DNA from: a bacterium
Lineage (GTDB): Bacteria; Patescibacteriota; Patescibacteriia; UBA2196
Length of the DNA stretch: 64,000 nucleotides
Direction of reading: 5' to 3'
NCBI GenBank assembly: GCA_035387885.1
Contig: DAOOOW010000002.1
Location: 7,869 to 71,868, forward strand
Below the pieces are notes generated by a model that was not told the DNA's origin, searched no databases, and saw only the letters and a program-made list of their open reading frames with translations. Position numbers and translations under genes: made by a program. Of the stretch, positions 33,640 through 57,834 are shown piece after piece (positions within the stretch are counted from its first letter, which is position 1; each line of letters opens with the position of its first letter).

Positions 33640-33790
33640 ATATTTTATCCCCTCCTTTTAAAGGAGGGGCTTAAGCCGAAGGCTAAGGGGGTGGTTATAG
33701 TATTAAGACAAAATTAATTTTTAATACCATGACCGCCCCCTCCGGCTAATCGCCGAGAGACCCCGCCTTTAAAAGGTGGGGATAGGGGAA
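33640..33790 (+). repeat. Composite palindromic repeat cluster (CCCCTCCTTTTAAAGGAGGGG and CCCCGCCTTTAAAAGGTGGGG units)
   Basis: Two related perfect palindromes plus a GC-rich linker. Related CCCCTCCTT(G/T)AAAAGGAGGGG copies at 40975-40998 and 56718-56740 (the latter inside a CDS). Confidence 0.6.
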
Positions 33791-33792
33791 TT

Positions 33793-35403
33793 ATGCTATC
33801 CAAAAATCAATCCAACCTCCAAAAATTTCTGCAAACTCTAAACCAGAGTGCGGTTTTGGATTGGTCAAAAAAATTAATTAAAGAATATCCCAAGGCTGAA
33901 GTCTATTTAGTTGGCGGCGCTGTTAGAGACGCTCTTTTAGGTGTTAAAGATAATAAAGATTTTGATTTTGTGGTCAGAGGCATATCAATGAAAAATTTAG
34001 AAAAATTTTTAGGCCGTTTGGGGTGGGTTGAAAAATTGGGGCGTAATTTTGGCGTTTTAAAATTTAAACCGAAAAAATTTGCTCAAGATAAAAATTCCAG
34101 CCCTATTTTACAAAATAAAAAAGTGCTGGATAAATTTGAACCATTGGATATCGCTTTGCCTCGCAGTGATTTTGCTTTTAATACTGGTGGCTATAAAGAT
34201 GTGCAGGTTAAATTTGATAAAGATTTGAATATAGAAGAAGATTTACTGCGTCGAGATTTTACCATTAATGCTATTGCCTATAATTTGGTTAAAAAAGAGA
34301 TTGTTGATCCATATGGTGGTTTGATTGATTTAAAAAATAAAACCATTCGGGCGGTTGGCCAACCAAAAATTAGATTGCGAGAAGATTATTCCAGAATTTT
34401 AAGAGCCATCAGATTGTCTTGCCAATTAAATTTTGAAATTGAAGAAAAAACACTCACTGCTGTAAAAAAATTAGCAAAAAATTTAAACGCAAAAAATAAA
34501 GCAGGGGAGTGGATAACTCCCAGAGAAACCATTGCTAAAGAAATTTTGCGTGCTTTTTATTATAACCCCATATGCGCTTTTGATTTATGTGACGAGTTAA
34601 ATATTTTTAAAGTTTTAATGCCCGAACTTTTAAAAATGAAAAATTGCACCCAGCCAGCCAATTTTCATTCTGAAGGCGATGTCTGGCAACATACAAAATT
34701 GGCCTTGGAGAAATTAGATAGTAAAGAATTTGTGTTATTTGAAAAAAAGATAGAAAAGTTATTAGTGACAAGTGACAGGCGACAAGTAGAAAAAGAAAAA
34801 AGTGATCAGCTGGAATTAATTTTGGCTGTTATTTTTCATGATATTGGCAAACCTTATGTAAAGGAAACACCAGAAAAAAATGGCACTGACAGAATTCGTT
34901 TTAATGACCATGATAATTTTGGTGCCGATTTAACCAAGAGTATTTGTGAACGCTTAACTTTTTCTTCGCCAGAAAAATATGGGGTGGAAATTGATAATAT
35001 TGTTAAACTTGTTAGAAGGCATATGATGTTAATCAATGGTCATCCAAGTCAATTTCGTCCGACCACCATTGAAAAATATTTTTTTTCTGATAATTTTCCA
35101 GGTATTAATTTACTTAAATTGGCTTATTTGGATTCTTTGGCCACTATCCCCAAGACTGGTAAATTGGAAATGAATTTGGTTGGGGCTTTAATTAAAAGAA
35201 TTAAAGAGTTACAATCTTTAATGGTGCATAAAAAAACCAGAGCACAATTACCCGCACCTTTGCTTGATGGGGTTGAGATTATGAGACTGTTAAAAATTAA
35301 ACCAGGTAAAGAAGTTGGTGAATTAAAAGAAAAACTTCGCGAAGCGCAATTAATTGGGAAAATAAAAAATAAATCCGAAGCTAAAAAATATTTGCAAAAA
35401 TAA
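33793..35403 (+). CDS. cca: CCA-adding tRNA nucleotidyltransferase / poly(A) polymerase family with HD domain
   Basis: Pol-beta head LVGGAVRDALLG..DFDF and HD motif IFHDIGKP. Confidence 0.8.
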   Translation: MLSKNQSNLQKFLQTLNQSAVLDWSKKLIKEYPKAEVYLVGGAVRDALLGVKDNKDFDFVVRGISMKNLEKFLGRLGWVEKLGRNFGVLKFKPKKFAQDKNSSPILQNKKVLDKFEPLDIALPRSDFAFNTGGYKDVQVKFDKDLNIEEDLLRRDFTINAIAYNLVKKEIVDPYGGLIDLKNKTIRAVGQPKIRLREDYSRILRAIRLSCQLNFEIEEKTLTAVKKLAKNLNAKNKAGEWITPRETIAKEILRAFYYNPICAFDLCDELNIFKVLMPELLKMKNCTQPANFHSEGDVWQHTKLALEKLDSKEFVLFEKKIEKLLVTSDRRQVEKEKSDQLELILAVIFHDIGKPYVKETPEKNGTDRIRFNDHDNFGADLTKSICERLTFSSPEKYGVEIDNIVKLVRRHMMLINGHPSQFRPTTIEKYFFSDNFPGINLLKLAYLDSLATIPKTGKLEMNLVGALIKRIKELQSLMVHKKTRAQLPAPLLDGVEIMRLLKIKPGKEVGELKEKLREAQLIGKIKNKSEAKKYLQK

Positions 35404-35405
35404 AA

Positions 35406-35435
35406 AGTCTCCCGTCATCTGACGGGAGATTTTTG
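35406..35435 (+). terminator. Intrinsic terminator after cca
   Basis: GTCTCCCGTCA-TCT-GACGGGAGA followed by TTTTTGG. Confidence 0.7.
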
Positions 35436-35440
35436 GTCAG

Positions 35441-35674
35441 TCAAAAATCAAGGTTTGTCATCTCTGATCGTCTGTTTGTTAAACAATGATTGTTTAACAA
35501 ACTATCTTGCCGTCTAAGCAAGGCTATTGTAGGGCCTTTATCCGCAGTGGTTTCGACTTCATAAGTCTTTTCACTTATTGAAGTTCCCAAAGTCTCGATT
35601 TTTGTTTTAATTTTTTCAGGTTTTTTCGAACAGTAACATTTCGCTTGCCCTGGTGTTATAATGACTACCGCCAC
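35441..35674 (-). CDS. Questionable small ORF (77 aa, GTG start); may instead be a noncoding transcript
   Basis: Only ORF in this 400-bp gap, with a weak RBS. A TTGACA-17-AATAAT promoter candidate lies upstream on the minus strand at about 35775-35815. Confidence 0.2.
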   Translation of the reverse strand: MAVVIITPGQAKCYCSKKPEKIKTKIETLGTSISEKTYEVETTADKGPTIALLRRQDSLLNNHCLTNRRSEMTNLDF

Positions 35675-35821
35675 TAACCATTTGTGGAGAGGTTTTCTTT
35701 ACGCCATCGTGTGGGCCTCCTATTTTTTTTCTAAAACAAACTAGTTATTTTATTAATTTTTATTTTTTTTAAAATTACTTCTAATTATTTCACTTTTTTT
35801 AAAAAATGTCAAATAAAAAAA

Positions 35822-35850
35822 TCTCCCGTTTACAGACGGGAGAGATAGTT
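35822..35850 (-). terminator. Intrinsic terminator for the 35855..36154 gene (minus strand)
   Basis: Minus-strand ATCTCTCCCGTC-TGTAAA-CGGGAGAT followed by TTTTTTTATTT. Confidence 0.65.
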
Positions 35851-35854
35851 GATT

Positions 35855-36154
35855 TTAACCAAGTTTGGTACATGTGATAATCACACCCTTAAGATGTGGC
35901 AATTGACGATGAAAATGTCTTTTGAGATTAGTTTGAGTTGGACCTCTTTTTGAACCAGCAAAAGGCATTCTGTGAATTTGGGCGCTTGGTAGATTATCAC
36001 CGTCAATTGGTTTAGCTGATTCACCATACTCCAAATTGTGCATTTTTTCTTCAATAAGCTGTTGACTGAGAGAATAAAAAATTTCTATTTGTTTTTTTGT
36101 CCAATGAACGATCAATACAAACCATTCTGCTGATGTGTATTTTTTCTTTTGCAT
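35855..36154 (-). CDS. Hypothetical 99-aa soluble protein downstream of a structured leader RNA
   Basis: Strong RBS GGAGG with a 7-nt spacer. No family recognised. Confidence 0.5.
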   Translation of the reverse strand: MQKKKYTSAEWFVLIVHWTKKQIEIFYSLSQQLIEEKMHNLEYGESAKPIDGDNLPSAQIHRMPFAGSKRGPTQTNLKRHFHRQLPHLKGVIITCTKLG

Positions 36155-36235
36155 TTTACCTCCAAAATTATTAGATTTTTATTAAAGTGATAAATTAAGC
36201 CTAATATTTTAATTAAAAAAGTCAAATAAAAAATA

Positions 36236-36402
36236 AAAAGCCCGACCAATTTAGGGCTTCAAGAGGGGGGAAGGTTCCTTGGAGGTTGAACTAAGCTGGC
36301 CGGGCAAAATAGAGCCGGTTATCCTTGGAATAAGTGCCGAGTGTGGAAATTAATTTCCAAGAATAAGCCGGCTTTTGTTGTCTGAATTGATTTGTGTGTT
36401 TA
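36236..36402 (-). ncRNA. Candidate structured RNA (riboswitch/attenuator-like leader, or sRNA) ending in an intrinsic terminator
   Basis: Minus-strand transcript of about 165 nt. It contains a 15-bp helix GCCGG(C)UUAUUCUUGG / CCAAGGAUAACCGGC enclosing an AAAUUAAUUU hairpin, a GGAACCUUCC hairpin, then the terminator AAGCCC-UAAAUUGGUC-GGGCUU plus U-tract (plus coordinates 36236-36262). Confidence 0.35.
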
Positions 36403-36409
36403 TATTTAT

Positions 36410-36438
36410 ATAATAATAAACTGAATAAAAAATGTCAA
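36410..36438 (-). promoter_or_regulatory. Consensus sigma70 promoter on the minus strand (TTGACA-17-TATTAT)
   Basis: Minus-strand -35 at plus 36433-36438 and -10 at plus 36410-36415, with exact 17-nt spacing. Confidence 0.5.
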
Positions 36439-36494
36439 GAGTCATTTAAGGAGTGCTTATTCCCAAAATATTTTTTAAATGTTAAGATATATTT

Positions 36495-36800
36495 ATGTTA
36501 ATCAAAGAAGAAGTTCAACATATTGCCGATTTGGCCAGAATCGAACTGACTAATCAGGAAACAGAAAAATATCAAGAGCAACTTGGTCATATTTTAGATT
36601 ATATGGAAAAATTAAAAGAAGTTGATATTGCTAGTGTTACCGTTTCTGATAGTGGCACAAATGATTTAGAAAATATTTGGCGAGAAGATGCAATTAAAAC
36701 ACAAGATGCAATTAACAACAGTCAAGAAAATGAAACTAATTTAATTGACATGGCGCCAAGTGTGGAAAATCGGCAAGTGAAAGTAAAATCAGTATTTTAA
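36495..36800 (+). CDS. gatC: Asp/Glu-tRNA amidotransferase subunit C
   Basis: About 100 aa with the N-terminus VQHIADLARIELT. Confidence 0.8.
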   Translation: MLIKEEVQHIADLARIELTNQETEKYQEQLGHILDYMEKLKEVDIASVTVSDSGTNDLENIWREDAIKTQDAINNSQENETNLIDMAPSVENRQVKVKSVF

Positions 36801-38468: not shown

Positions 38469-38565
38469 GGAGCGGTAGTTCAGTTGGTTAGAACGCTGCC
38501 CTGTCATGGCATGAGGGTTGAAATCTGCCCCAAGGCAGATTTCAACGGTTCAAGTCCCGTCGTAA
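38469..38565 (+). pseudogene. Variant tRNA-Asp-like 5' portion (acceptor 5' strand to T-arm) with a 31-nt hairpin insertion in the variable region; lacks a 3' acceptor strand
   Basis: Identical to tRNA-Asp through the anticodon loop (CTGTCA), then TGGCATGAGGGTTGAAATCTGCCCCAAGGCAGATTTCA and ACGGTTCAAGTCCC. It is followed by GTCGTAAT, not by CCGCTCC. Confidence 0.55.
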
Positions 38566-38608: not shown

Positions 38609-38682
38609 GGAGCGGTAGTTCAGTTGGTTAGAACGCTGCCCTGTCACGGCAGAGGTCACGGGTTCGAGTCCCGTCCGCTCCG
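38609..38682 (+). tRNA. tRNA-Asp (anticodon GTC)
   Basis: GGAGCGGTAGTTCAGTTGGTTAGAACGCTGCCCTGTCACGGCAGAGGTCACGGGTTCGAGTCCCGTCCGCTCCG. Clean cloverleaf, no CCA. Confidence 0.85.
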
Positions 38683-40794: not shown

Positions 40795-41008
40795 AAAAAC
40801 AGGGTTTAAATTAAACCCAATAAAACGCAAAAATTCGCTGAAATGGGCGGATTTTTGCTTTTAGATAATGTTTGCGGTTTTTATAGATATTTGGTAAAAT
40901 AAAAGGGTAAAAAGTAAAAGTTTAACTCAGCGCCTATTGGCGATTTATTAACCACCCCGCCCGACTTCGTCGAGGCGCCCCTCCTTGAAAAGGAGGGGAC
41001 AGCAAGTC

Positions 41009-41404
41009 ATGTCATTATCCAAATACCTTACTTTAATGACCTTAGCCACCCTACTTTGCTGGGCTTCTTTTATAATTGTAGTTAATACTATTAATCCATT
41101 TAATACAGCAATCTTGGGTTTTGTCTTTTTTTACAGTTCTTTGTTTTTGTCGTTAATTGGTACTCTGTCTATTTTGGGATTTTTATTAAGAAATTTATTA
41201 AATAAAAATCAATTTATTAGTGTGCAGATAATGACTTCTTTTCGTCAAAGTATTTGGTTGGCCCTGATGATTGTTATTGGTTTATATTTACAAAGTCAAA
41301 AATTGGTGGCTTGGTGGAATTTATTAATATTAATACTGCTAATGATTTTATTGGAGTTTTATTTTATTTATCAAAGTGAAGAAACTTTAGAAAAAGAAAA
41401 TTGA
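41009..41404 (+). CDS. Hypothetical membrane protein (4 TM)
   Basis: An internal Met of track ORF 40985.. begins the hydrophobic protein. The upstream region consists of repeat palindromes. Confidence 0.4.
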   Translation: MSLSKYLTLMTLATLLCWASFIIVVNTINPFNTAILGFVFFYSSLFLSLIGTLSILGFLLRNLLNKNQFISVQIMTSFRQSIWLALMIVIGLYLQSQKLVAWWNLLILILLMILLEFYFIYQSEETLEKEN

Positions 41405-56070: not shown

Positions 56071-57834
56071 ATGTCAAGTTTTATTAGTAAAAAATATTTT
56101 TTCATTACATTTTTTCTGCTAATATTAGCAGAAATTTTTTCATATTTAAGTTGGCAAAATCCGCTAATAAATACAATTTGTTTTAGTCTTATAATTTTAA
56201 TCACCTTAATTATATCTTGGCGCAAATTAGAATATGGTTTTTATATTTTATTTGCCGAATTGTTTATTGGCTCATTTGGCTATCTCTTTTCTTTAACAAT
56301 TAATGGCTTTCGCGTATCTTTGCGCATGGGAATCTTTGTGGTGGTGATGGCAACTTGGCTATATCGCTATTTAACGCAATTGACAACGCAATTTAACGCC
56401 AACAAAGATTGTCATTCCGACCGAAGGTCGACAAGTGAAACATTGTCGAACGTAGTGGAGGAATCTAAAAATGAGATCCCTCGACTCCGCTTCGCTCCGC
56501 TCGGGATGACAAAAGAAAAAGCGAGGATAACAAAAAAAACAATGGTCACATTTGCTGTTGTAATTATTTGGGCTTTTATCTGGGGCTTAATTCGTGGCAA
56601 TGGATTTAGTAATGTTTTTTTAGATTTTAATAATTGGCTATACTTTTTAATTATTTTGCCAGTATTTGGTGTTCTAAAAAAATATAACCACCCTGGCTCG
56701 TCCAAATTGCCAGAAGGACTCGCCACCCCTCCTTTAAAAGGAGGGGACAGTAAAAATGTTTTTTTTAAAAATATTATTTCAATTCTTTCTGCGGCCGTAA
56801 TAATTATTTTTTTAAAGACATTTTTTTTATTTTATCTTTTTACCCATGGTTTTGCTGACATTGGTTCGGAAATTTATAGATGGGTGCGCGACACGCGCAT
56901 TGGTGAAATTACTCTAATGGGTGGGGGGCTTTATAGAATATTTATTCAATCGCAAATCTATAGTTTGTTGTTATTTTGTATTTTGTTTTTTAAGGGTTGT
57001 CATCCCGAGCGGAGCGAAGCGGAGTCGAGGGATCCCGTAGATAAAAATAAAAAAGAAAACAACCAAAAATTACCTATTACTTATTACCTATTACTTATTA
57101 CCTCTCTTACCACCATTATTCTTAGCCTCTCCAGAAGTTTCTGGCTTGGCTTAACTGTTAGTTTAATTATTTATTTTTTTTACACATTACACATTATTCA
57201 TTACACATTACTTTTCTTTTTTAAATCCTTTTCAAAACTTCTTATAGTTGTTATTATGAGTTTGTGTCTAATTGTGGCCACACTCTATCTGCCGCCAAAA
57301 AAGGATTATGATTTGTCTGTTTTAATTTCTAAGCGAGGCATTTCCAGTAGCGAGCCAGCCAGTTCTTCTAGAATAAGTCAATTAAAACCTTTGCTTTTGG
57401 CCATTAGCCAGCATCCTATAATTGGTTCTGGCTTTGGCACCACTGTAACTTATAAATCCACTGATCCCCGCGCCATTCAAGAATCATTAAACAATTCTGG
57501 TCTTATTAAGACTTACGCTTTTGAGTGGGGATATTTGGACATGATGTTAAAATTTGGTGCACTGGGATTATTTGCTTACCTATATTTAATTTATTTAATA
57601 ATGAAAAGATTGTTGAATTTCCAATTTCCAATTTCCAATTTCCAAACAAATTGCAAATTTAAAATTCAAAATCAAAAACTTGTTAACCATAATTCATTAT
57701 TCATTATTCATTATTCACTTTTCTTTGCCCTGCTTGCCTTGCTCATTGTTAACATTTTTAGCCCCTATTTAAATCATCCCTTGGGCATTGGCTTCCTCAT
57801 TTTAATGCTAATAGTTGCGAATGAGGGCGAATGA
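56071..57834 (+). CDS. O-antigen ligase/polymerase-family (Wzy_C-like) polytopic membrane protein, heavily interrupted in-frame by repeat elements
   Basis: More than ten TM segments. At least six repeat insertions remain in frame: 56409-56516, 56718-56740, 56999-57041, about 57071-57104, 57607-57662, 57690-57722. Confidence 0.5.
   Translation: MSSFISKKYFFITFFLLILAEIFSYLSWQNPLINTICFSLIILITLIISWRKLEYGFYILFAELFIGSFGYLFSLTINGFRVSLRMGIFVVVMATWLYRYLTQLTTQFNANKDCHSDRRSTSETLSNVVEESKNEIPRLRFAPLGMTKEKARITKKTMVTFAVVIIWAFIWGLIRGNGFSNVFLDFNNWLYFLIILPVFGVLKKYNHPGSSKLPEGLATPPLKGGDSKNVFFKNIISILSAAVIIIFLKTFFLFYLFTHGFADIGSEIYRWVRDTRIGEITLMGGGLYRIFIQSQIYSLLLFCILFFKGCHPERSEAESRDPVDKNKKENNQKLPITYYLLLITSLTTIILSLSRSFWLGLTVSLIIYFFYTLHIIHYTLLFFFKSFSKLLIVVIMSLCLIVATLYLPPKKDYDLSVLISKRGISSSEPASSSRISQLKPLLLAISQHPIIGSGFGTTVTYKSTDPRAIQESLNNSGLIKTYAFEWGYLDMMLKFGALGLFAYLYLIYLIMKRLLNFQFPISNFQTNCKFKIQNQKLVNHNSLFIIHYSLFFALLALLIVNIFSPYLNHPLGIGFLILMLIVANEGE
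56470..56516 (+). repeat. 37-bp repeat GATCCCTCGACTCCGCTTCGCTCCGCTCGGGATGACA inside a CDS; exact inverted copy at 56999..57041
   Basis: 56479-56515 is the exact reverse complement of 57002-57038; the two are separated by about 490 bp of coding sequence. Confidence 0.75.
56999..57041 (+). repeat. Inverted copy of the 37-bp repeat (TGTCATCCCGAGCGGAGCGAAGCGGAGTCGAGGGATC)
   Basis: See 56470..56516. Confidence 0.75.

What the first reader, a model, noticed from the sequence alone, without database searches (positions are those of the whole stretch)
36236..36438. Minus-strand unit of consensus promoter, roughly 165-nt GC-rich structured RNA, intrinsic terminator, and a strong-RBS 99-aa ORF: candidate riboswitch/attenuator or terminated sRNA
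On the minus strand, TTGACA-17-TATTAT (plus coordinates 36438-36410) is followed by a transcript that is much more GC-rich than its surroundings. The transcript folds into:
- a 15-bp helix (GCCGG(C)UUAUUCUUGG with CCAAGGAUAACCGGC) enclosing an AAAUUAAUUU hairpin;
- a GGAACCUUCC hairpin;
- a canonical terminator AAGCCC-UAAAUUGGUC-GGGCUU plus UUUUUAUUUUUU at 36262-36236.
About 75 nt downstream sits GGAGG-7nt-ATG of a 99-aa soluble ORF (36154-35855) of unknown family, which has its own terminator at 35850-35822. This aptamer-like domain, terminator and ORF layout is the textbook architecture of a transcription-attenuating riboswitch or leader. I cannot match the fold to a known riboswitch class by eye. 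The ORF is also flanked by direct repeats (AAAAAA(T)GTCAAATAAAAAA at 35800-35822 and 36215-36237), which are minus-strand TTGAC boxes.
Basis: partly seen in the sequence, partly recalled or inferred. Interest (0 to 1): 0.55.

Follow-up and report, generated by a model that had tools for sequence, protein, structure and literature searches.

The report
Candidate C-rich small RNA, Patescibacteria
This is a real, strongly conserved non-coding RNA of about 165 nt with its own promoter and terminator in an uncultured Patescibacteria (CPR) genome; it is most likely a small regulatory RNA whose exposed C-rich loops pair with ribosome-binding sites, not a riboswitch, and it always sits next to a fast-evolving small protein gene of unknown function.

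Summary
The described unit is real. On the minus strand there is a near-consensus promoter, a GC-rich RNA of two long helices (fold z = -5.8 to -6.1), a T-tract and a genuine 99-aa gene. The RNA is single-copy and matches no Rfam family. Related Patescibacteria genomes keep the same layout divergent from gatC. Between the window and relative L008 the RNA is 92% identical and the terminator-to-ORF spacer 94%, while flanking housekeeping proteins are 76-77% identical and the ORF only 35%. That indicates strong selection on the non-coding parts. All seven loci with an ORF99-family gene carry an upstream RNA with two mostly unpaired C-rich motifs (CCUCC-like, then CCCC). Every such gene has a GGAGG ribosome-binding site, which is rare in this genome (about 6 of 67 genes). 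A second promoter follows the terminator in 7 of 8 loci, and RNA sequence and fold differ between relatives. These features fit a discrete anti-Shine-Dalgarno small RNA of the RsaE/LhrC/6C kind, not a riboswitch. Target specificity is unproven: the cognate pairing test was not significant. The protein has no detectable relatives or fold match. Verdict: a new, lineage-restricted sRNA candidate of a known kind; moderate interest.

The parts
36410..36438 (-). Promoter P1 of the RNA: TTGACA (36438-36433), 17-nt spacer, TATTAT (36415-36410). The predicted transcription start is near 36403.
   Evidence: 11 of 12 consensus positions. An equivalent 11-12 of 12 promoter occurs at the same place in L008, L004, L001, L010 and L013. 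The start site is inferred, not measured.
36374..36403 (-). Unstructured A/C-rich 5' leader of the RNA (AUAAACACACAAAUCAAUUCAGACAACAAAA).
   Evidence: Unpaired in the minimum-free-energy fold. AAACACACAA is shared with L008.
36314..36372 (-). Helix 1: GCCGG(C)UUAUUCUUGG paired with CCAAGGAUAACCGGC. It encloses a small hairpin (36358-36345) and the loop CACACUCGGCAC (36345-36334), which is invariant in the window, L008 and L004.
   Evidence: Both-side changes in L004 keep the pairs: A-U to U-G and A-U to G-C in the alignment, and GGAAAU/AUUUCC to GGGAAC/GUUCCC in the inner hairpin.
36240..36305 (-). Helix 2 domain: closing stem GCCCGGCCAGCUUAG / CUAAAUUGGUCGGGC, an internal loop, an inner stem CAAGG/UCUUG and an apical loop. 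The domain ends at the T-tract, so it doubles as the intrinsic terminator hairpin.
   Evidence: L004 carries a compensating U-A insertion (CCCUGG...CCAGGG).
36279..36287 (-). C-rich motif 1, AACCUCCAA, an anti-Shine-Dalgarno-like sequence in the internal loop. ACCUCCAA is the exact complement of UUGGAGGU at the ORF's ribosome-binding site.
   Evidence: It is the best partner for this motif among 71 translation-initiation regions in the window.
36263..36274 (-). C-rich motif 2, CCUUCCCCCCUC, in the apical loop.
   Evidence: of the 13 nt in the two motifs together, 11 are unpaired in the minimum-free-energy fold. Equivalent C-runs occur in all seven ORF99-linked RNAs.
36225..36239 (-). T-tract (UUUUUAUUUUUUAUU) that ends the RNA.
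   Evidence: Conserved in L008, L004, L001 and L010.
36198..36225 (-). Promoter P2 for the ORF: TTGACT (36225-36220), 16-nt spacer, TAGGCT (36203-36198). The -35 box is intact and the -10 box is weak.
   Evidence: A homologous box occurs in L008, L004 and L001 (TTGACT-16-TAAAAT), L013 (TTGACA-17-TATTAT), L007 and L016; it is absent in L010. The stretch from 36239 to 36155 is 94% identical to L008.
36159..36163 (-). GGAGG Shine-Dalgarno sequence of the ORF, 4 nt before the ATG.
   Evidence: All eight ORF99-family genes have GGAGG, whereas only about 6 of 67 genes in the window do.
35855..36154 (-). 99-aa ORF ('ORF99'), a member of a tiny orphan protein family found only in Patescibacteria-type metagenome contigs. 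Predicted topology is beta-beta-alpha-beta-alpha-beta, with invariant W11, S28, G71-P72 (RGPT motif) and F81.
   Evidence: family. (AlphaFold2 pLDDT 80, pTM 0.72). No Pfam, PADLOC, PHROG, PDB-sequence or PDB-fold match.
35822..35843 (-). Intrinsic terminator of ORF99 (UCUCCCGUCUGUAAACGGGAGA followed by a U-tract).
35784..35812 (-). Promoter P3 (TTGACA-17-AATAAT with an upstream TG) of the downstream paralog.
   Evidence: The same sequence lies in front of the intact paralog in L008.
35441..35707 (-). Disrupted paralog of ORF99: ATG GCG TAA (a stop at codon 3), then an in-frame reading frame of 85 codons.
   Evidence: translation. (BLASTP E = 2e-13 to the intact 92-aa paralog P0010 of L008). 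(hhalign probability 88.6% to the family).
35408..35429 (-). Terminator of the paralog. It has the same stem family (UCUCCCG...CGGGAGA) as the ORF99 terminator.

Best explanation
The element is a separately transcribed small RNA of about 165 nt.

Anatomy. A strong sigma-70-type promoter drives an unstructured A/C-rich leader followed by two long hairpin domains. The second domain ends in a U-tract and terminates the transcript. That domain displays two exposed C-rich sequences: ACCUCCAA in an internal loop and CCUUCCCCCCUC in the apical loop. Both mimic the anti-Shine-Dalgarno end of 16S rRNA.

Proposed mechanism. These loops base-pair with G-rich ribosome-binding sites and block translation initiation. 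The most probable targets are the mRNAs of the adjacent ORF99-family gene(s). Those genes carry unusually strong GGAGG sites and are transcribed from their own weaker promoter just past the terminator.

Shown here:
- promoter and terminator signals;
- a stable fold that is conserved, with some compensatory changes;
- much stronger conservation of the RNA and the 5' UTR than of neighbouring genes;
- recurrence of unpaired C-rich motifs in every RNA that sits next to an ORF99-family gene;
- sequence complementarity to the ORF's ribosome-binding site.

Inferred:
- that the RNA accumulates as a discrete transcript;
- that it acts by pairing;
- that ORF99 is its target;
- that the effect is repression.
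For: 1. Transcription-unit signals. P1 scores 11 of 12 and 11-12 of 12 in five related loci. A stable terminal hairpin is followed by a U-tract.

2. Structure. z = -5.8 to -6.1 for the window and L004, and -4.9 for the L001 type. The consensus fold has 41 pairs: 3 keep pairing through changes on both sides, and several more through G-C to G-U changes.

3. Selection (window versus L008). The RNA core is 92% identical and the T-tract/P2/5' UTR stretch 94%. By comparison GatC is 77% and Cca 76% identical at the amino-acid level, and the ORF is 61% identical in nucleotides and 35% in amino acids.

4. C-rich motifs.
- All seven RNAs upstream of ORF99-family genes carry CCUCC/CUCCU followed 3-25 nt later by CCCC, and these bases are mostly unpaired.
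- The syntenic RNAs in L088 and L090, which lack ORF99, have no such unpaired motif.
- The composite motif occurs only 3 times in 128 kb of window sequence, counting both strands.
- In each relative's locus, its only occurrence on the transcribed strand is in the RNA.

5. Targets.
- Every ORF99-family gene has a GGAGG site, against about 6 of 67 genes in the window.
- The ORF99 initiation region is the best partner for motif 1 among 71 initiation regions.
- Contiguous complementarity reaches 8 nt in the window and L013 and 7 nt in L008 and L010.
- The L008 paralog shows a bipartite match, GAGGGGU-N10-AGGAGGU against ACCUCCU-N10-CCCUCC.

6. A separate promoter between the terminator and the ORF is present in 7 of 8 loci.

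7. Precedent. Unpaired UCCC or C-rich loops that bind Shine-Dalgarno sequences and block initiation are documented for RsaE and other Rsa RNAs (PMC2790875), LhrC (PMC4132741) and the 6C sRNA, which acts without RNA chaperones (PMC6486639).
Against: - There are no expression data, so a discrete transcript is not shown.
- Covariation rests on only three distinct sequences of this RNA type.
- Each sRNA does not pair significantly better with its own ORF's initiation region than with those of other loci (733 of 5,040 permutations do as well). The complementarity could therefore be generic CCUCC/GGAGG pairing.
- Pairing of 5-8 nt is short.
- L010 lacks the second promoter, so in that locus the ORF may depend on read-through.
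- The four RNA types are not demonstrably homologous: covariance-model scores of 8.7-13 bits are within noise. The shared motifs could be convergent, or partly a side effect of C-rich composition. About 5% of shuffles of the RNA's own composition carry the composite motif.
- The strongly conserved helix 1 and its invariant loop CACACUCGGCAC are not explained by this model.
Confidence: 0.45

Rival explanations
1. The RNA is a cis-acting leader: a riboswitch, or a protein- or RNA-dependent attenuator. In this model the RNA is the 5' part of the ORF99 mRNA. A signal decides whether transcription stops at the T-tract or reads through into the ORF.
For: - The promoter, structured RNA, terminator, ORF order is kept in all loci.
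- L010 has no recognisable second promoter, so its ORF may need read-through.
- The 3' strand GGGC can pair with either of two upstream GCCC segments in the window, L008 and L004.
- The invariant loop CACACUCGGCAC in helix 1 could be a binding site.
- The RNA and the ORF are present or absent together in most genomes examined.
Against: - No Rfam riboswitch or leader matches, even at E <= 10.
- Both alternative pairings still end in a hairpin followed by the U-tract, so neither is an antiterminator.
- There is no multi-helix junction.
- There is no leader peptide: the RNA contains no AUG.
- The terminator-to-ATG distance is 70-110 nt and contains a conserved -35 box in 7 of 8 loci.
- RNA sequence and architecture differ between relatives, unlike ligand-binding aptamers.
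- Read-through folds show no interaction with the ribosome-binding site.
Confidence: 0.2
2. The RNA works through a protein rather than through mRNA pairing. It could be the bound partner, sponge or antidote of the ORF99-family protein, in a two-component module resembling a type III toxin-antitoxin pair. Alternatively it could sequester another protein that binds C-rich RNA.
For: - The RNA, terminator, small-ORF order resembles type III toxin-antitoxin loci (general knowledge of ToxIN-type systems).
- The module is accessory: it is absent from L086/L087, where cca abuts gatC.
- The ORF is duplicated, decays (a pseudogene in the window) and evolves much faster than its surroundings (35% versus 76-77% identity). 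This behaviour is typical of conflict systems.
- The protein is small and basic, with no known fold.
Against: - The RNA contains no tandem repeats.
- The protein has no PADLOC, Pfam or PDB match.
- ORF99 has its own promoter.
- Nothing shows toxicity or RNA binding.
Confidence: 0.15
3. The element has no RNA function of its own. It could be a large terminator or insulator structure, or a decayed remnant of the tRNA operon that occupies this position in relatives.
For: - In L088 and L013, tRNA genes lie at the same position, divergent from gatC, and are followed by a GC-rich hairpin.
- The region lies between divergent genes.
Against: - A dedicated near-consensus promoter drives it.
- It is 92% identical to L008, where neutral DNA should be far more diverged.
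- It shows no similarity to tRNA.
- There is nothing upstream on this strand for it to terminate.
Confidence: 0.05
4. It is a divergent copy of a known housekeeping RNA, such as SRP RNA, 6S RNA, RNase P RNA or tmRNA.
For: The element is of comparable size and GC-rich in an AT-rich genome, and the Rfam scan found no housekeeping RNA elsewhere in this 64-kb window.
Against: - No Rfam hit at E <= 10 in the window or in relatives.
- ARAGORN finds no tmRNA or tRNA.
- The two-hairpin architecture lacks the SRP domain IV or 6S central-bubble layout.
- The element is absent from close relatives, which a housekeeping RNA would not be.
Confidence: 0.02

Closest known systems
RsaE/RoxS and the other 'C-rich box' (UCCC) sRNAs of Staphylococcus and Bacillus (PMC2790875)
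   Same: - Size of about 100-170 nt, with its own promoter, a 5' hairpin and a 3' intrinsic terminator.
- Two or more unpaired C-rich motifs in the most conserved regions.
- The motifs are complementary to Shine-Dalgarno sequences.
- A low-GC host genome.
   Different: - No sequence or structure homology: the Rfam RsaE model gives no hit.
- The motif here is a fuller anti-SD sequence (ACCUCC), not UCCC.
- Strong SD sites are rare in this genome, so the potential target set would be small.
- It is tightly linked to one orphan gene family.
- There is no experimental evidence.
LhrC family of Listeria monocytogenes (PMC4132741)
   Same: - C-rich motifs sit in a hairpin loop, and the motif-bearing domain doubles as the terminator hairpin.
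- The motifs bind the G-rich sequence upstream of a start codon.
- The RNA is poor in G; here the excess of C over G, (C-G)/(C+G), is +0.31.
   Different: - LhrC is multicopy and is induced by envelope stress through LisRK. This RNA is single-copy and its regulation is unknown.
- No homology.
6C sRNA of Actinobacteria (PMC6486639)
   Same: Hairpin loops with runs of C act as direct mRNA-binding sites without Hfq or ProQ. That is relevant because chaperone-independent G-C pairing would suit a reduced CPR genome.
   Different: - The 6C RNA comes from high-GC hosts and has a conserved two-loop architecture.
- No Rfam 6C hit here.
Type III toxin-antitoxin loci (ToxIN type; from general knowledge)
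   Same: The gene order is promoter, non-coding RNA, intrinsic terminator, small protein gene. The module is accessory and patchily distributed.
   Different: - No tandem RNA repeats.
- The protein is unrelated to known toxins.
- A separate promoter serves the ORF.

Membership tests
Riboswitch / transcription attenuator | The aptamer or leader matches a described class. | tested here: not met
   Rfam 15 at the gathering threshold and at E <= 10 on the window and eight related loci returned only tRNAs and noise.
Riboswitch / transcription attenuator | Mutually exclusive terminator and antiterminator structures. | tested here: inconclusive
   Two alternative pairings exist for the 3' GGGC strand, but both leave a hairpin followed by the U-tract. 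No antiterminator was seen. Co-transcriptional folding was not modelled.
Riboswitch / transcription attenuator | The regulated ORF has no promoter of its own downstream of the terminator. | tested here: not met
   TTGAC[AT] followed after 16-17 nt by a -10-like box lies directly after the T-tract in 7 of 8 loci, 29-62 nt before the ATG. This is sequence-level evidence only.
Riboswitch / transcription attenuator | The sensor core is conserved across distant relatives. | tested here: not met
   Four different RNA types occur among loci whose ORFs are homologous. A covariance model of the window type scores the others at noise level.
C-rich-loop anti-SD sRNAs (functional class: Rsa RNAs, LhrC, 6C) | A discrete gene with its own promoter and an intrinsic terminator. 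| tested here: met
   These are sequence signals; the transcript itself was not observed.
C-rich-loop anti-SD sRNAs (functional class: Rsa RNAs, LhrC, 6C) | Two or more unpaired C-rich motifs in conserved regions. | tested here: met
   11 of 13 motif nucleotides are unpaired in the window RNA, and the same pattern holds in all seven ORF99-linked RNAs. One search shows the motif is rare in the background.
C-rich-loop anti-SD sRNAs (functional class: Rsa RNAs, LhrC, 6C) | Complementarity to the ribosome-binding site of target mRNAs. | tested here: met
   ACCUCCAA pairs with UUGGAGGU of ORF99, the top-ranked partner among 71 initiation regions for that motif. Specificity beyond the generic anti-SD/SD match is not significant.
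C-rich-loop anti-SD sRNAs (functional class: Rsa RNAs, LhrC, 6C) | Inhibition of translation initiation is demonstrated. | not testable with these tools
   This needs toeprinting or reporter assays.
RsaE, LhrC or 6C RNA families (homology) | A match to the family's covariance model. | tested here: not met
   No hit at E <= 10. The element works like these RNAs but is not a member of their families.
Type III toxin-antitoxin (ToxIN-like) | The antitoxin RNA is made of tandem repeats. | tested here: not met
   Tandem Repeats Finder reports only the T-tract.
Type III toxin-antitoxin (ToxIN-like) | The toxin belongs to a known endoribonuclease or defence family. | tested here: not met
   No Pfam, PADLOC, PHROG or PDB match.
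Housekeeping RNAs (SRP, 6S, RNase P, tmRNA, tRNA) | A covariance-model or ARAGORN match. | tested here: not met
GC-rich palindrome family of this window (CCCNCC-TTNAAAA-GGNGGG) | Sequence similarity to the other copies. | tested here: not met
   Self-BLAST and the covariance model find a single copy of the RNA. The four palindromes lie elsewhere.

The most novel reading that the evidence does not exclude
The RNA and the fast-evolving ORF99-family gene(s) form a self-contained accessory module of a kind not yet described. In this reading a small RNA with anti-Shine-Dalgarno loops keeps a small effector protein (a toxin, defence factor or host-interaction factor) translationally silent. That is functionally like an RNA-antitoxin system, but without antisense overlap, RNA repeats or any known toxin fold. 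The module inserts next to gatC in episymbiotic CPR bacteria.
Probability: 0.15. Interest if true: 0.7.

Novelty: new member of a known kind. Interest (0 to 1): 0.45.

Why it matters
Regulatory small RNAs have essentially not been described in CPR/Patescibacteria. Three searches of the full-text paper library found no such report, and Rfam has no matching family.

This locus offers a well-delimited candidate under clear purifying selection. It has a simple, testable mechanism (anti-SD loops) and an obvious first target, the neighbouring gene. It sits in a genome where strong Shine-Dalgarno sites are rare, so the target set should be small.

If confirmed, it would extend the chaperone-independent 'C-rich loop' mode of riboregulation to a very distant, reduced-genome lineage. 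It would also give a handle on an orphan, rapidly diversifying small-protein family.

Tried and rejected
1. Rfam at the gathering threshold on the whole window, and at E <= 10 on 35380-36600 and on eight related loci, returned only tRNAs and sub-threshold noise. The best hit was Arrc14 at 26 bits against a gathering score of 99.

2. The metagenome scan with the RNA pattern CCACACTCGGCACN{8,30}AACCGGC gave 68 hits. All were chance matches inside high-GC coding DNA, and none was related.

3. The genome-contig scan with the protein family found only one further true locus (L005, identical to L001) and one spurious Clostridium hit.

4. The wider family alignment was too diverse to use for the search for related loci.

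5. An unconstrained 40-nt duplex scan of the window was too permissive to be informative.

6. The cca start region looked like the best partner for motif 2. This was rejected as a conserved target. Its G-run is one arm of a GC-rich palindrome, and the cca start regions of L004 and L001 are not G-rich.

7. I suspected a second non-coding RNA at 35405-35810 (z = -4.7). It is instead a disrupted paralog of ORF99.

8. The test for co-evolution of each sRNA with its own ORF's initiation region was not significant.

9. A covariance model of the window-type RNA does not detect the other RNA types above noise, so a single homologous family cannot be claimed.

10. Two AlphaFold models with PDB fold searches, and PADLOC, PHROG, Pfam and PDB-sequence searches, gave no function for the protein.

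11. P0008, a 1,885-aa eukaryote-like repeat protein hit by the profile, was dismissed as a spurious low-complexity match.
Full report
**What is in the sequence**

All features below are on the minus strand.
- A promoter, TTGACA-17-TATTAT, lies at 36438-36410 and matches 11 of 12 consensus positions.
- About 30 nt of unstructured A/C-rich leader follow.
- A GC-rich core follows at 36372-36240. Its GC content is 0.51, against 0.18-0.24 in the flanks and 0.33 for the window.
- The core folds into two long hairpin domains (-51.1 kcal/mol, z = -5.8 to -6.1; none of 200 shuffles folds as well).
- A T-tract lies at 36239-36225.
- Next comes TTGACT-16-TAGGCT (36225-36198), then GGAGG four nucleotides before the ATG of a 99-aa ORF (36154-35855), then a clean terminator at 35843-35822.

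The element occurs once in the window. It has no tandem repeats and no tRNA or tmRNA signal.

I make three corrections:
- The GGAACCUUCC hairpin is not conserved.
- The terminator's 3' strand more probably closes a long 14-bp helix.
- The SD-to-ATG spacing is 4 nt, not 7.

**Known families**

Rfam 15 finds nothing but tRNAs in the window at the gathering threshold. At E <= 10 it finds nothing credible on the locus; the best hit is 26 bits against a gathering score of 99. It also finds nothing in eight related loci. The element is therefore not SRP, 6S, RNase P, tmRNA, a T-box or any curated riboswitch or leader.

**The ORF is a real gene of an orphan family**
- A word-indexed search of 5.8 billion proteins found three homologs.
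- A full HMMER profile search of 1.84 billion representatives found five more distant clusters.
- A profile built from all members found no further family cluster, only the paralog P0010 already seen in L008.
- The alignment has in-frame indels and invariant W11, S28, G71-P72 and F81.
- AlphaFold2 gives a beta-beta-alpha-beta-alpha-beta model (pLDDT 80, pTM 0.72).
- That model has no significant PDB neighbour (best E = 0.12).
- Pfam, PADLOC, PHROGs and PDB sequences give nothing.
- One locus is labelled 'Patescibacteria group bacterium', and the window's own GatC is from a 'bacterium' MAG.

**Comparative anatomy**

Contigs encoding the homologs show the same arrangement. gatA and gatC lie on one strand. 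Divergent from gatC come a promoter, a structured RNA, a terminator and then the small ORF. A convergent cca or ligA follows.

The RNAs fall into four types:
- Type i (window, L008, L004): two hairpins.
- Type ii (L001/L005, L010): one long hairpin closed by AAGCCCUGAUAAG/CUUAUCAGGGCUU, with a compensatory change from AAUCAAAG/CUUUGAUU to AACCAAGG/CUUUGGUU.
- Type iii (L013): a tRNA, a long hairpin and a separate terminator.
- Type iv (L016).

A covariance model built from type i recovers only type i. The other types score 8.7-13 bits, which is inside the noise. Homology between types therefore cannot be claimed.

Genomes found through GatC show that the module is accessory:
- In L086/L087, cca abuts gatC and there is neither RNA nor ORF.
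- L088 has three tRNAs and a hairpin at this position but no ORF.
- L090 has a small hairpin and no ORF.

**Evidence for function of the RNA**

Within type i, the consensus fold has 41 pairs. Three are kept through changes on both sides and several more through one-sided G-C to G-U changes. Manual inspection adds the inner hairpin GGAAAU/AUUUCC versus GGGAAC/GUUCCC, and a compensating U-A insertion in helix 2. With three sequences this is suggestive rather than statistical.

The stronger argument is differential conservation between the window and L008:

| Segment | Identity |
|---|---|
| RNA core | 92% (nt) |
| T-tract, second promoter and 5' UTR | 94% (nt) |
| GatC | 77% (aa) |
| Cca | 76% (aa) |
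| ORF | 61% (nt), 35% (aa) |

. The non-coding segments are the most constrained sequences in the neighbourhood.

**The shared feature**
- All seven RNAs that precede an ORF99-family gene carry an anti-Shine-Dalgarno-like CCUCC or CUCCU, followed 3-25 nt later by a C-run.
- These bases are mostly unpaired in the predicted folds, and they sit inside a domain closed by a 13-15-bp helix.
- C exceeds G in every one of these RNAs, with (C-G)/(C+G) up to +0.44.
- The syntenic RNAs of the two ORF-less genomes (L088, L090) have no unpaired C-rich motif.
- The composite motif occurs three times in 128 kb of window sequence, counting both strands. In each related locus, its only occurrence on the transcribed strand is in the RNA.
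- About 5% of shuffles of the RNA's own composition contain the motif, so composition alone does not explain four independent types.

On the target side:
- Every ORF99-family gene has a full GGAGG site.
- In my crude gene set for the window, only about 6 of 67 genes have GGAGG and 26 have no detectable SD.
- The ORF99 initiation region is the best partner for motif 1 among 71 initiation regions.
- Contiguous complementarity is 8 nt in the window (ACCUCCAA/UUGGAGGU) and in L013 (CCUCCUUG/CAAGGAGG), and 7 nt in L008 and L010.
- The L008 paralog shows a bipartite match.

**Limits**
- Each RNA does not pair better with its own ORF than with the ORFs of other loci (733 of 5,040 permutations do as well). 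The complementarity is therefore generic anti-SD/SD pairing, not shown co-evolution.
- The apparent match of motif 2 to the cca start is explained by a GC-rich palindrome and is not conserved.
- Nothing here measures transcription.

**Leader versus separate sRNA**

Against a riboswitch or attenuator:
- No known class matches.
- There is no junction and no leader peptide.
- Both alternative 3' pairings remain terminators.
- A promoter with an intact -35 box follows the T-tract in 7 of 8 loci.
- The RNA architecture changes between relatives.
- Read-through transcripts are not predicted to sequester the SD with the C-rich motifs. Loop-loop contacts cannot be seen by this method.

For a leader:
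- The gene order is conserved.
- L010 lacks the second promoter.

I put a discrete sRNA with anti-SD loops at about 0.45, a cis-acting leader at 0.2, a protein-centred or toxin-antitoxin-like module at 0.15, and non-functional or housekeeping explanations at 0.07 or less.

**Comparison with known systems**

The closest functional analogues are the C-rich-loop sRNAs of Gram-positive bacteria.
- RsaE and other Rsa RNAs use unpaired UCCC motifs to bind Shine-Dalgarno sequences and prevent initiation-complex formation (PMC2790875).
- LhrC uses three UCCC sites, including the terminator loop (PMC4132741).
- The mycobacterial 6C sRNA binds targets through C-rich loops without chaperones (PMC6486639).

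The present RNA works like these on paper, but it is not a member of their families because no covariance-model match exists.

The layout also recalls type III toxin-antitoxin loci. However, the defining RNA repeats and known toxin families are absent.

**Verdict**

This is a real, selected, previously unannotated structured RNA gene, restricted to a small Patescibacteria clade and physically coupled to an orphan, rapidly diverging small-protein gene. It is best read as a new sRNA family of a known mechanistic kind. Interest is moderate. It is a clean and testable entry point into riboregulation in CPR bacteria, where I found no prior reports. The mechanism is inferred and the phylogenetic reach is narrow.

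Noticed in passing
window 35441-35707 (minus), with promoter 35812-35784 and terminator 35429-35408: A second ORF99-family gene lies directly downstream, with its own promoter, AGGAGG site and terminator. It is disrupted by a TAA at codon 3 (ATG GCG TAA), after which the frame stays open for 85 codons. The intact 92-aa counterpart is present at the same place in L008. This is either a pseudogene or a gene re-initiated at the internal GTG.
   Followed up: yes
window 33650-33668, 33762-33780, 40979-40997, 56727-56745: There are four copies of a GC-rich palindrome, CCC[TG]CC-TT[TG]AAAA-GG[AT]GGG. In at least two copies the G-rich arm lies where the ribosome-binding site of the next gene would be (cca at 33793; the ORF starting at 41009, followed by GACAG). 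They therefore look like hairpins that sequester the Shine-Dalgarno sequence. The same GGAGGGGACAG motif precedes cca in L010. These G-arms are also the best predicted partners of the RNA's apical C-run.
   Followed up: partly
window 35855-36154 versus L008 323-631: The ORF is hypervariable between conserved flanks. Its coding sequence is 61% identical in nucleotides and 35% in amino acids, while the 5' UTR immediately upstream is 94% identical and the neighbouring housekeeping proteins are 76-77% identical. This suggests diversifying selection or cassette replacement.
   Followed up: partly
whole window (crude set of 67 ORFs): Shine-Dalgarno usage appears weak. Only about 6 genes have GGAGG within 4-16 nt of a candidate start, and 26 have no recognisable SD core. 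The gatC start at 36495 has none.
   Followed up: partly
L088 2178-2415 (minus) and L013 1032-1112 (plus): In two relatives the position divergent from gatC holds tRNA genes, followed by a GC-rich hairpin and a terminator. The L013 tRNA is 81 nt long, with an unusually long insertion in the anticodon arm (possibly an intron), and scores 50 bits.
   Followed up: no
window 38469-38532 (plus): A 64-nt tRNA-like hit scores 31.6 bits, just above the Rfam gathering score of 29. It lies 77 nt upstream of a normal tRNA at 38609-38682. It could be a truncated or degenerate tRNA.
   Followed up: no
window 36387-36414 (plus): A plus-strand promoter-like site, TTGATT-16-TATAAT, overlaps the -10 region of the RNA's promoter back to back. 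It is probably the gatC promoter. The two divergent promoters would then share the same AT-rich stretch and might interfere with each other.
   Followed up: no
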